DNA of 32,000 nt from Candidatus Heimdallarchaeota archaeon (GTDB taxonomy: Archaea > Asgardarchaeota > Heimdallarchaeia > Heimdallarchaeales > Kariarchaeaceae): assembly GCA_030149205.1 (NCBI GenBank), contig JASBSB010000007.1:540001-572000 (forward strand), written 5' to 3'. A program made the translations under genes and the position numbers. The notes below the pieces were generated by a model. It worked only from the letters and a program-made list of their open reading frames with translations, did not search any database and was not told where the DNA came from. Every line of letters begins with the position of its first letter. Within the stretch, counting starts at the first letter, position 1. Shown one piece after another: positions 9,904 to 10,941 of this stretch.

Positions 9904-10941
9904 TTATTTTTTGGCAGGATAAGCCTGAGCTAACAGGTTATCCAGCTTTTTAAATCTATCTTGTACAGGTTTAAGTATTTCTAAAAGCAACTCTGCTGTT
10001 GTACCTTTTAGATCTGCAGGATGAATTTTTCCATCATTATATAGGTTTTCAAGCTCATCATAGTTTTTTAACTCAAGATTTCCCCCGAACTTTTCAGGTC
10101 TTTTGATGAGCATATTTTCACCTTTTCTTTCTAAATAGGGAAAAATTACACTTTTCACAAAAATTAACACAGGGTTATCTAACACTTCTTTTTCAGGACA
10201 AAAGGATTTCTTGTATTTTTTTGTAATCTGCTTTGGTTCATCCAAGCAATCTATCTTTGATGCTTCAACAGAGGCACTCATTTTATTACCTGATATACCG
10301 GGTAATAAGGGATTAAAGATACATATTGGTTTTTCATATCCAATCTTAGGTAGAATCTCTCTACTTAGCATATAGATCCCTCTCTGGTCAATTCCCCCGA
10401 ACGCAAAATTACAGTCTAGATGAGGTACATCAAGACTTTGCATTAGAGGATAAACAAACGAACCCAACTTGGGGTCATCTGACGTTCTAACCACCTCAGC
10501 TCCAGCTCTTCTTGATCTGTTCAATGTTACTATCGCTGATAATTTAAGAAGCTCTAACGCGTATTTATCGGTCAGTTCAAAATCCGTTCCTGTGACAAAA
10601 GAAAGTTTTTTGGTGTCAACCAGCAACCCTTCAAGTAATCCGAGTACTATCTGTTTGTAATACTCTGTCCTTGCATCTAAAACAGAAAAATCACTTTTCA
10701 TGTCGTCTAGATGTGCATGCAAGTTTGCAAGTAATATTTTAAAATGAGAACCAGCGTCAAGGAAATCTGCGATCTTACTCATTGGGATGAGGTATCCGAT
10801 ATGAACTCTGCCTGTAGGTGCTGTCCCCCAATATCCTCGAAGATCATTTTGTTGAATTGCATTTATAAGTTCTTCATGCTCTACTACCTCTTGAGTGTTC
10901 CTTGTGAACAGATTTAGTTTCTCAGAGACCTGGGGTTCCAT
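9904..10941 (-). CDS. tyrS: Tyrosine--tRNA ligase, archaeal/eukaryotic type
   Basis: YWGTAPTGRVHIGY (HIGH), LANLHAHLDD, YPLMQSLD, FGGIDQR, KMSAS (KMSKS) and IHPADLK. Start moved from the TTG at 11019 to the ATG at 10941 (MEPQ), which gives a normal N-terminus. Confidence 0.96.
   Translation of the reverse strand: MEPQVSEKLNLFTRNTQEVVEHEELINAIQQNDLRGYWGTAPTGRVHIGYLIPMSKIADFLDAGSHFKILLANLHAHLDDMKSDFSVLDARTEYYKQIVLGLLEGLLVDTKKLSFVTGTDFELTDKYALELLKLSAIVTLNRSRRAGAEVVRTSDDPKLGSFVYPLMQSLDVPHLDCNFAFGGIDQRGIYMLSREILPKIGYEKPICIFNPLLPGISGNKMSASVEASKIDCLDEPKQITKKYKKSFCPEKEVLDNPVLIFVKSVIFPYLERKGENMLIKRPEKFGGNLELKNYDELENLYNDGKIHPADLKGTTAELLLEILKPVQDRFKKLDNLLAQAYPAKK

What the first reader, a model, noticed from the sequence alone, without database searches (positions are those of the whole stretch)
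9904..10941. TyrRS looks like the haloarchaeal/opisthokont type
Seen: YWGTAPTG, IPMSKIADFLDAG, LHAHLDDMKS, AGAEVVR, GGIDQRGIYMLSREILP and RPEKFGGN. Known, from memory: human TyrRS has YWGTATTG, VPMSKIADFLKAG, YLDNMKA and AGAEVVK; haloarchaeal type-B TyrRS has LHAHLDD and GGIDQRGIYMLSREILP. This type has been argued to have reached opisthokonts by transfer from haloarchaea. Inference: a mosaic-looking version in an Asgard-like genome would allow vertical inheritance or a different donor. The usual ADLHA also reads ANLHA here.
Basis: partly seen in the sequence, partly recalled or inferred. Interest (0 to 1): 0.6.

Follow-up and report, generated by a model that had tools for sequence, protein, structure and literature searches.

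The report
Opisthokont-like TyrRS in a Heimdall archaeon
The gene is the only tyrosyl-tRNA synthetase of a Kariarchaeaceae (Asgard) genome and does belong to the "haloarchaeal/animal-fungal" type, but trees show it is neither the ancestor nor the donor of the animal-fungal enzyme.

Summary
Its best solved relative is human cytosolic TyrRS (306 bits, 44% identity), well above M. jannaschii (209). It is the only tyrS in a 93.5%-complete genome, and a tRNA-Tyr with C1-G72/A73 is present.

The protein lies in the "type-B" clade (100/99) with Halobacteria, Thermoplasmatota, MSBL1, DPANN-like archaea and opisthokonts, but in its own Heimdall-only subclade (100/99).
- Opisthokonts nest among DPANN-like sequences, three supported branches away. 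AU tests reject Heimdall+opisthokonts (p=1e-7) and Halobacteria+opisthokonts (p=3e-47).
- Only 7 of 201 Asgard genomes sampled carry this type. A sister genus of the same family has a 30%-identical TyrRS of another lineage.
- That other Asgard lineage holds the canonical eukaryotic TyrRS of plants, algae and oomycetes (100/99), so it is the likely vertically inherited one.
- The "mosaic" look fits retained ancestral states. ANLHA is a recurrent D-to-N change.

Most likely a Heimdallarchaeal ancestor acquired this gene by transfer and lost the original. It is a new member of a known kind, of modest interest. First readers of this scan noted similar TyrRS genes in other genomes.

The parts
9904..10941 (-). 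tyrS coding sequence: 345-aa class Ic tyrosyl-tRNA synthetase of the haloarchaeal/opisthokont ('type-B') lineage. It has no EMAPII or other appended domain.
   Evidence: The Pfam PF00579 match covers residues 31-323. The NF006330 match covers residues 5-340 of the protein and positions 3-338 of the 342-position profile.
10792..10803 (-). HIGH-type signature, here HIGY (residues 47-50). It follows YWGTAPTG (residues 37-44). Tyr37 aligns with human Tyr39.
   Evidence: Translation, alignments to human TyrRS, and clade consensus.
10723..10725 (-). Asn73 codon, the N of ANLHA where most TyrRS have Asp.
   Evidence: this column is D in 258, N in 22 and T in 4 of 284 sequences. N is shared by 15 members of the Heimdall clade: the four genus-g1 genomes and their metagenomic near-relatives, plus the named Kariarchaeaceae and Kariarchaeum group. 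The g3 and f2g5 members of the clade keep D. N recurs independently in 7 other type-B sequences.
10384..10452 (-). Tyrosine-pocket block, residues 164-186 (YPLMQSLD ... GGIDQ). Tyr164, Gln168, Asp171 and Gln186 align with human Tyr166, Gln170, Asp173 and Gln188.
   Evidence: Alignment (constant offset of +2). The roles of the human residues are from my memory of the human mini-TyrRS structures and were not tested here.
10270..10284 (-). KMSKS-type loop, here KMSAS (residues 220-224).
   Evidence: Human TyrRS has KMSSS at the aligned place.
10942..11052 (.). 111-bp divergent intergenic region between tyrS and the 415-aa repeat-protein gene at 11053-12300. It presumably holds the promoter region; this was not analysed.
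   Evidence: ORF map. A homologue of the 11053-12300 protein lies upstream of tyrS in three genomes of the same genus.

Best explanation
This is the working, single-copy tyrosyl-tRNA synthetase of a Kariarchaeaceae (Heimdallarchaeia, Asgard) archaeon. It is a class Ic enzyme of the mini-TyrRS format that activates tyrosine and charges a tRNA-Tyr(GUA) carrying the archaeal/eukaryal C1-G72 and A73 identity set.

It belongs to the haloarchaeal/opisthokont ('type-B') lineage. Within that lineage it forms a separate, Heimdall-only branch found in a few genera (g1 and g3 of Kariarchaeaceae, g5 of the neighbouring family).

Most likely an ancestor of these genera acquired a type-B gene by horizontal transfer from another archaeon, with a DPANN-like donor as the best guess. 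The gene landed at a new locus, and the Asgard/eukaryote-type tyrS that related genera still carry was then lost (xenologous displacement).

The opisthokont enzyme came from a different, DPANN-like part of the same lineage. The original eukaryotic TyrRS descends from the other, standard Asgard type.

What is shown: gene identity, motifs, single copy, the cognate tRNA, clade membership, and the rejected sister relations. What is inferred: the direction and donor of the transfer, the loss of the older gene, and enzymatic activity.
For: Identity and completeness:
- establish the gene as a full-length TyrRS.
- It is the only tyrS in a 93.5%-complete genome. The second PF00579 hit is TrpRS.
- tRNA-Tyr(GUA) lies at G000:C7:215856-215982 with a 53-nt intron, C1-G72 and A73.

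Careful tree of 105 sequences (LG+C20+F+G4 PMSF):
- Type-B clade 100/99. Heimdall clade 100/99.
- The Heimdall clade is sister to a group containing 'archaeon CG10_big_fil...' (95/71).
- All type-B eukaryotes lie behind branches of 99/94, 94/84 and 100/97, inside a Micrarchaeia/DPANN-like assemblage.
- Halobacteria (100/100) are nested in Thermoplasmatota/MSBL1-like sequences.

AU tests:
- Heimdall+eukaryotes p=1.4e-7; Halobacteria+eukaryotes p=2.7e-47.
- With canonical eukaryotes added, all-eukaryote monophyly p=2e-20 and Heimdall type-B+canonical eukaryotes p=8e-9.

Patchiness in Asgard:
- Matches of 55% identity or more occur only in g1 (4 genomes), g3 (1) and g5 (2) of 201 Asgard genomes.
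- Genera g2 and g4 of the same family show 32-34%.

Canonical eukaryotic type:
- Plants, green and red algae and oomycetes are monophyletic (100/100).
- They sit in a 100/99 clade with Asgard TyrRS of f5g11, f26, f13 and f1g2.
- The f5g11 protein's best solved relatives are non-opisthokont eukaryotic TyrRS (349, 319 and 315 bits), against 116 bits for human.

Locus and composition:
- The g2 and g4 tyrS contigs carry genes 36-68% identical to G000 genes on C4 and C7, not near the window's tyrS on C8.
- GC of the gene region (0.36) matches the window, so any transfer is old.
Against: - The position of the Heimdall clade inside type-B is not resolved. It falls on the Thermoplasmatota/Halobacteria side with weak support (84/36). 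It is sister to the DPANN+eukaryote part with weak support (89-91). The AU test does not reject the latter (p=0.06).
- The gene tree inside the Heimdall clade follows the family split (f2g5 against f1). This also fits an old vertical presence in the order, followed by several replacements.
- The donor cannot be named. Most neighbouring sequences are unnamed metagenomic proteins.
- Genomes other than G000 are MAGs of 82-95% completeness with 2-5% contamination. The standard tyrS of g2 or g4 could in principle be mis-binned, although the neighbouring genes argue against it.
- Constrained trees came from fast searches. Non-Asgard archaea with standard TyrRS were barely sampled.
Confidence: 0.75

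Rival explanations
1. Old vertical presence with differential loss. Type-B and standard TyrRS coexisted as homeoalleles in early Heimdallarchaeia or Asgard. Different lineages kept different copies, and the window's lineage kept type-B.
For: - Several Asgard genomes do carry two divergent TyrRS genes today. G123, G130 and G163 (genus g7) each have two types.
- G188 (family f10) has two types lying tail-to-tail, 33 bp apart.
- The Heimdall type-B subtree splits f2g5 from f1, as the taxonomy does.
- The nearest outgroups of type-B in my trees include an Asgard-specific lineage (family f10).
Against: - Only 7 of 201 sampled Asgard genomes, in 3 of 59 genera, carry type-B, so many independent losses would be needed.
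- No sampled genome carries type-B together with a standard copy.
- The outgroup pattern is biased because I sampled standard types almost only from Asgard. The f10-type protein scores as high to A. fulgidus TyrRS as to human TyrRS (246 against 245 bits).
Confidence: 0.15
2. One reading: the Asgard type-B gene is the vertical ancestor, or the direct donor, of the opisthokont cytosolic TyrRS.
For: - Human and yeast TyrRS are the best solved relatives.
- The window protein shares YWGTAPTG-type and other strings with opisthokonts that Halobacteria lack.
- The Heimdall clade may be sister to the whole DPANN+eukaryote part of type-B (AU p=0.06; 89-91 support).
Against: - Direct Heimdall+opisthokont grouping is rejected twice (p-AU 1.4e-7; 2.7e-7).
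- Three supported branches and many DPANN-like sequences lie between them.
- Other eukaryotes (plants, algae, oomycetes) carry a different TyrRS that nests in another Asgard lineage (100/99). Type-B was therefore most likely not the LECA enzyme.
- Kariarchaeaceae are not the Asgard group reported closest to eukaryotes, which is Hodarchaeales (PMC10307638).
Confidence: 0.04
3. Recombinant mosaic: the gene is a chimera of an opisthokont/DPANN-like part and a haloarchaeal-like part.
For: Motif sharing is split. YWGTAPTG is shared with the DPANN/eukaryote side. LHAHLDD, AGAEVVR and the GGIDQRGIYML block are shared with Halobacteria and Thermoplasmatota.
Against: - The nearest outgroup (f10 type) already has YYGTAPTG, AASEVVR and an IDQRHIYML-type block. 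The shared strings are therefore ancestral states that one or the other derived clade has lost.
- Separate trees of the N- and C-terminal halves give no supported conflict. The N half puts the Heimdall clade with the Thermoplasmatota/Halobacteria side (86.5), and the C half is unresolved (50-73).
Confidence: 0.03

Closest known systems
Opisthokont cytosolic TyrRS catalytic core (human mini-TyrRS 1n3l/5thh; yeast 2dlc)
   Same: - It is the best solved relative: 306 and 293 bits, 44% identity end to end with only two small gaps.
- It shares the HIGH-type and KMSKS-type signatures and the aligned tyrosine-pocket residues.
- It belongs to the same type-B clade.
   Different: - The window protein has no C-terminal EMAPII/tRNA_bind domain and no WHEP domain, which animal and some metagenomic eukaryotic forms carry.
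- It has R for K in AGAEVV(R/K), and an IDQRGIYML block rather than a VDQRKIF block.
- It is separated from opisthokonts by three supported branches, and sisterhood is rejected by AU tests.
Haloarchaeal TyrRS, the proposed donor of the opisthokont gene (Huang, Xu and Gogarten 2005, cited in PMC3191353 and PMC13054926)
   Same: About 47-51% identity. It lies in the same type-B clade and has identical LHAHLDD and GGIDQRGIYMLSREILP blocks.
   Different: - Halobacteria have YIGYAPTG rather than YWGTAPTG.
- They form a tight clade (100/100) nested in Thermoplasmatota/MSBL1-like sequences, not next to the Heimdall clade or to eukaryotes.
- Halobacteria+eukaryotes is rejected (p-AU 3e-47).
DPANN/CPR 'eukarya-type' TyrRS (Mukai et al. 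2017, PMC5370408)
   Same: They are members of the same type-B radiation. One DPANN-like group (its cluster includes archaeon CG10_big_fil_rev_8_21_14_0_10_43_11) is the nearest sister of the Heimdall clade in the larger tree (95/71).
   Different: - The sequences closest to opisthokonts (Micrarchaeia-like, Tara and other unnamed groups) form a different subclade from the Heimdall one.
- Some of them carry an N-terminal tRNA_bind fusion, which is absent here.
Standard Asgard/canonical eukaryotic TyrRS (for example G145 of the same family; plant, algal and oomycete cytosolic TyrRS)
   Same: Same enzyme family and function. It is present in sister genera of the same archaeal family.
   Different: - Only 30% identity to the window protein.
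- It has YDGFEPSG-type rather than YWGTAPTG-type motifs.
- It lies on the opposite side of the TyrRS tree (100/99 and 100/100 branches). This lineage, not type-B, holds the canonical eukaryotic enzymes.

Membership tests
Archaeal/eukaryal class Ic tyrosyl-tRNA synthetase (NCBIfam NF006330, Pfam PF00579) | Full-length match to the curated TyrRS equivalog model above its cut-off | tested here: met
   NF006330 scores 347.2 bits against a cut-off of 220, covering residues 5-340. TrpRS models fall far below their cut-offs. PF00579 matches at 1.6e-51.
Archaeal/eukaryal class Ic tyrosyl-tRNA synthetase (NCBIfam NF006330, Pfam PF00579) | HIGH-type and KMSKS-type signatures, and tyrosine-pocket residues | tested here: met
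   HIGY lies at residues 47-50 and KMSAS at 220-224. Tyr37, Tyr164, Gln168, Asp171 and Gln186 align with human Tyr39, Tyr166, Gln170, Asp173 and Gln188. The residue roles are from memory of the published structures.
Archaeal/eukaryal class Ic tyrosyl-tRNA synthetase (NCBIfam NF006330, Pfam PF00579) | [quoted passage not shown] | tested here: met
   ARAGORN with introns allowed finds tRNA-Tyr(GUA) at G000:C7:215856-215982. The spliced sequence starts with C1, pairs with G72, and ends with the discriminator A.
Archaeal/eukaryal class Ic tyrosyl-tRNA synthetase (NCBIfam NF006330, Pfam PF00579) | Tyrosine activation and tRNA-Tyr charging activity | not testable with these tools
   This needs an aminoacylation assay with purified protein.
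Haloarchaeal/opisthokont-type ('type-B') TyrRS lineage | Groups with Halobacteria and opisthokonts, to the exclusion of standard archaeal and canonical eukaryotic TyrRS | tested here: met
   The type-B clade has 100/99 support (105 rows) and 100/98 (82 rows including plants, algae and oomycetes).
Haloarchaeal/opisthokont-type ('type-B') TyrRS lineage | Higher similarity to opisthokont TyrRS than to M. jannaschii-type or other eukaryotic TyrRS | tested here: met
   Human 306 bits and yeast 293 bits, against M. jannaschii 209, Plasmodium 117 and Leishmania 71-72 bits.
Direct ancestor or donor of opisthokont TyrRS | Sister to, or including, the opisthokont clade | tested here: not met
   AU tests reject it: p=1.4e-7 and p=2.7e-7. 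Opisthokonts nest among DPANN-like sequences.
Vertically inherited Asgard-to-eukaryote TyrRS | Broad presence in Asgard, and grouping with the TyrRS shared by diverse eukaryotes | tested here: not met
   Only 7 of 201 Asgard genomes carry it. Canonical eukaryotes nest in another Asgard lineage (100/99). Heimdall type-B+canonical eukaryotes is rejected (p=8e-9).
Recent transfer from Halobacteria or DPANN (nested inside them) | Nested within a named donor clade with short branches and foreign base composition | tested here: inconclusive
   It is not nested in Halobacteria. Sisterhood to a DPANN-like group has 95/71 support in one tree and is not recovered in the sparser tree. GC equals that of the surroundings. 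The clade is deep (55-67% identity within it), so any transfer is old.

The most novel reading that the evidence does not exclude
The Heimdall clade is the sister lineage of the whole DPANN/CPR/opisthokont part of type-B. That topology is not rejected (AU p=0.06) and is weakly recovered in the second tree. The next outgroups are also Asgard sequences (family f10). On this reading type-B TyrRS arose in Asgard archaea and spread outward to DPANN and Thermoplasmatota and from there to Halobacteria, and through a DPANN-like intermediate to the opisthokont ancestor. Both eukaryotic TyrRS types would then trace back to Asgard archaea by two different routes.
Probability: 0.12. Interest if true: 0.55.

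Novelty: new member of a known kind. Interest (0 to 1): 0.3.

Why it matters
The opisthokont TyrRS is a textbook case of an ancient archaeon-to-eukaryote transfer and has been used as a synapomorphy of animals plus fungi. An Asgard copy could have turned that case into vertical inheritance. It does not.

What the Asgard copy does is add one more archaeal lineage to a gene type that is now known to be widespread and mobile. Two side results are useful:
- With current sampling, the haloarchaeal-donor hypothesis is rejected in favour of a DPANN-like neighbourhood. This agrees with Mukai et al. 2017.
- The canonical eukaryotic TyrRS nests inside one of several TyrRS lineages that coexist in Asgard archaea. 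TyrRS replacement has happened even within one Heimdallarchaeial family.

This warns against using single aminoacyl-tRNA synthetases as markers of Asgard-eukaryote ancestry.

Tried and rejected
The genomic context and taxonomy of the unnamed metagenomic neighbours could therefore not be read.
- I spent the single genome-contig scan on the lone protein and got only 7 loci. An alignment query would have given wider named sampling.
- Most close relatives carry no source name. Labels such as 'DPANN-like' rest on a few named members (Micrarchaeia, Aenigmatarchaeota, archaeon CG10...) and on Mukai et al. 2017.
- The treekit AU test under the full C20 mixture made no progress within the time limit. 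I re-ran the AU tests under the PMSF site-frequency model, with constrained trees from fast searches.
- The protein atlas gave only 'TyrRS' clusters with mixed archaeal taxa and was uninformative.
- ARAGORN without intron search found no tRNA-Tyr. With introns allowed it found one.
- Solved-structure sequences could not be imported into trees. Non-opisthokont eukaryotes were obtained instead through a plant representative, so Amoebozoa, Excavata and other groups are missing.
- A look at tyrS microsynteny gave only a shared neighbour within the genus, and a different locus in sister genera.
- I judged a structure prediction unnecessary at 44% identity to solved structures.

Full report
**1. What is there**

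The minus-strand ORF 9904-10941 (ATG start; a TTG-started extension to 11019 is not matched by homologues) encodes 345 residues.
- It matches Pfam PF00579 (1.6e-51) and the curated TyrRS equivalog NF006330 at 347 bits against a cut-off of 220, over its full length. TrpRS models fall far below their cut-offs.
- Among solved structures, human cytosolic TyrRS is best (306 bits, E=3e-90), followed by yeast (293). A. fulgidus scores 251, M. jannaschii 209 and A. pernix 188. Plasmodium and Leishmania TyrRS reach only 72-125 bits.
- BLASTP to a mammalian TyrRS gives 44% identity over 338 residues with two small gaps. Tyr37, Tyr164, Gln168, Asp171 and Gln186 align with the human tyrosine-pocket residues, and HIGY and KMSAS align with the class I signatures.
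The haloarchaeal strings are the consensus of six named Halobacteria.

**2. Genome context**

The window is G000:C8:540001-572000 of a 3.3-Mb, 12-contig, 93.5%-complete genome.
- The genome holds only two PF00579 genes, this one and a TrpRS on contig C4. There is no second tyrS.
- The closest homologues (62-67% identity) include proteins named Ca. Kariarchaeaceae archaeon. Related clusters are named Ca. Kariarchaeum pelagius and Ca. Heimdallarchaeota archaeon.
- GC of the gene region equals that of the surroundings.
- A tRNA-Tyr(GUA) with a 53-nt intron lies on contig C7. Spliced, it has C1-G72 and A73, the archaeal/eukaryal identity set.
- The flanking genes (8699-9883 and 11053-12300) have no Pfam match. 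A homologue of the latter lies upstream of tyrS in three genomes of the same genus.

**3. Distribution in Asgard archaea**

I searched 201 genomes of the phylum with the protein.
- Close copies occur only in the own genus g1 (66-67% identity, 3 further genomes), in genus g3 of the same family (64%), and in genus g5 of the neighbouring family f2 (55%, 2 genomes).
- That is 7 of 201 genomes, counting G000.
- Genera g2 and g4 of the same family have TyrRS only 32-34% identical. A direct comparison with the g2 protein gives 30%.
- The contigs carrying the g2 and g4 genes hold other genes 36-68% identical to G000 genes on C4 and C7. They look like true relatives, with tyrS at a different locus from the window's.
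- Family f10 (42 genomes) has an intermediate type (38-44%). The rest show 31-37%.

**4. Phylogeny of the type**

I combined several sets of sequences:
- close homologues;
- 50%-identity representatives;
- named opisthokonts: fungi, Fonticula and animals;
- metagenomic eukaryote-like proteins carrying WHEP and/or EMAPII domains;
- Asgard loci.

A careful IQ-TREE run (LG+C20+F+G4 by PMSF, 105 rows by 352 columns) recovers a type-B clade (100/99). It has two parts.
- Clade A (99/94) holds Micrarchaeia-like, Tara and other DPANN-like sequences. All type-B eukaryotes are nested in it, behind two further branches (94/84 and 100/97).
- The other part is weakly united (84/36). It holds the Heimdall clade (100/99) next to a small DPANN-like group (95/71). 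It also holds a well-supported group (99/95) of Aenigmatarchaeota, Thermoplasmatota/MSBL1 and, nested in these, Halobacteria (100/100).

AU tests (PMSF, 10,000 RELL replicates) give:

| Constraint | dlnL | p-AU | Result |
|---|---|---|---|
| Heimdall + eukaryotes | 149 | 1.4e-7 | rejected |
| Halobacteria + eukaryotes | 213 | 2.7e-47 | rejected |
| Heimdall clade sister to all of clade A | 28 | 0.06 | not rejected |

This agrees with Mukai et al. 2017 (PMC5370408). They placed the opisthokont clade among DPANN archaea and CPR bacteria, and inferred repeated TyrRS transfer among DPANN, CPR, eukaryotes and giant viruses. The haloarchaeal-donor proposal of Huang et al. 2005 is cited in PMC3191353 and PMC13054926. 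The latter notes that Katz 2015 had already found further eukaryotic homologues.

**5. Where the other eukaryotes are**

The standard TyrRS of a Heimdallarchaeial genome of another family (f5g11) has non-opisthokont eukaryotic enzymes as its best solved relatives (349, 319 and 315 bits). Human scores 116. The g4 protein is closest to the A. pernix enzyme, and the f10 type scores equally to A. fulgidus and human TyrRS.

A representative that had grouped with these Asgard proteins proved to be Brassica TyrRS 2. A search with it returned plants, green and red algae and oomycetes.

In an 82-row tree (quick, careful):
- These canonical eukaryotes are monophyletic (100/100).
- They sit in a 100/99 clade with Asgard TyrRS of f5g11, f26, f13 and f1g2, the last a genus of the window's own family.
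- Type-B (100/98) lies on the other side of the tree.

AU tests reject monophyly of all eukaryotes (p=2e-20), Heimdall type-B with canonical eukaryotes (p=8e-9), and again Heimdall type-B with opisthokont-type eukaryotes (p=2.7e-7).

In this sparser tree the Heimdall clade is weakly sister to the DPANN+eukaryote part (89-91). Its exact position within type-B is therefore unresolved.

**6. The 'mosaic' and ANLHA**

Clade consensus strings show how the sharing is split.
- The Heimdall clade shares YWGTAPTG with the DPANN/eukaryote side.
- It shares LHAHLDD, AGAEVVR and the IDQRGIYML block with the Thermoplasmatota/Halobacteria side.
- The f10 outgroup already has YYGTAPTG, AASEVVR and IDQRHIYML.

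These are therefore ancestral states, each lost in one derived clade. Trees of the two halves of the alignment show no supported conflict.

The Asn of ANLHA occurs in 22 of 284 sequences:
- 15 are Heimdall-clade members, namely genus g1 and its metagenomic relatives plus the named Kariarchaeaceae and Kariarchaeum group;
- the g3 and f2g5 members keep Asp;
- the remaining 7 are independent type-B sequences.

It is a tolerated, recurrent substitution.

**7. Reading**

The gene is the functional housekeeping TyrRS of this archaeon.
- The simplest history is an old horizontal acquisition of a type-B gene by an ancestor of a few Heimdallarchaeial genera, followed by loss of the Asgard/eukaryote-type gene.
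- The homeoallele-with-differential-loss alternative is less parsimonious but not excluded. Coexisting divergent TyrRS genes do occur in Asgard genomes.
- Vertical descent of the opisthokont enzyme from this lineage, or direct donation by it, is rejected at the present sampling.

**8. Novelty**

I found no paper in the searchable library that mentions TyrRS together with Heimdallarchaeia. Source databases annotate these proteins simply as tyrosine--tRNA ligase. First readers of this scan flagged similar TyrRS genes in other genomes.

The finding is a new member of a known, mobile TyrRS type. It is not a new kind and not a link to eukaryote origins.

**9. Limits**

- Most type-B neighbours are unnamed.
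- Non-Asgard standard TyrRS and several eukaryotic supergroups were not sampled.
- Constrained trees came from fast searches.
- Genomes other than G000 are incomplete MAGs.

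Noticed in passing
L012:347-2496 (G188, Asgard family f10, genus g44): Two divergent TyrRS genes lie tail-to-tail, 33 bp apart. One is of the standard/eukaryote-like lineage (347-1447, +) and one of the f10 type (1480-2496, -). Many f10 genomes show two or three TyrRS-like matches.
   Followed up: partly
G123, G130 and G163 (family f2, genus g7): loci L043/L044, L045/L046, L047/L048: Each of these genomes, of the same order as the window's organism, carries two TyrRS genes of different lineages (38-39% and 32% identity to the window protein). 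Some matches are interrupted by in-frame TAG codons (G163: 2 TAG; G130: 1 TAG).
   Followed up: partly
G047, G064, G070 and G088 (family f22, genus g33); L063: The TyrRS match contains the same '2 TAG, 1 TAA' interruptions in all four genomes of the genus. In L063 the long ORF covers only query residues 46-333. This could be a split gene, an insertion or a start-region rearrangement.
   Followed up: no
window:8699-9883 (+): A 394-aa protein with no Pfam match lies directly downstream of tyrS on the other strand. An earlier first-reader note calls it a longin-like domain fused to a helical solenoid.
   Followed up: no
window:11053-12300 (+): A 415-aa helical-repeat-looking protein with no Pfam match is transcribed divergently from tyrS. 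Homologues (33-35% identity in the N-terminal part) lie upstream of tyrS in three genomes of the same genus, but in tandem orientation.
   Followed up: partly
G000:C7:215856-215982 and the whole genome: tRNA-Tyr(GUA) carries a 53-nt intron. ARAGORN finds only 15-18 tRNAs in the 3.3-Mb genome, so many tRNA genes probably have unusual introns or are missed.
   Followed up: partly
P0121-P0126, P0128, P0132, P0290 (animal proteins): Tandemly duplicated (two-domain) type-B TyrRS of 670-960 aa occur in mites, crustaceans, flatworms and nematodes. Plants and oomycetes independently have two-domain canonical TyrRS (P0234, P0499).
   Followed up: no
P0130 and its cluster members (JGI metagenome, 2.9-kb contig): A class II LysRS-like domain is fused to a eukaryote-like type-B TyrRS (members of 612 and 943 aa). 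It groups with WHEP/EMAPII-bearing metagenomic eukaryotic TyrRS.
   Followed up: no
window:7013-7591 and 13679-14602: A leucine-rich-repeat protein and a TPR protein, both typical of Asgard genomes rich in repeat proteins, lie near tyrS. A UbiD-family decarboxylase is at 12362-13612.
   Followed up: no
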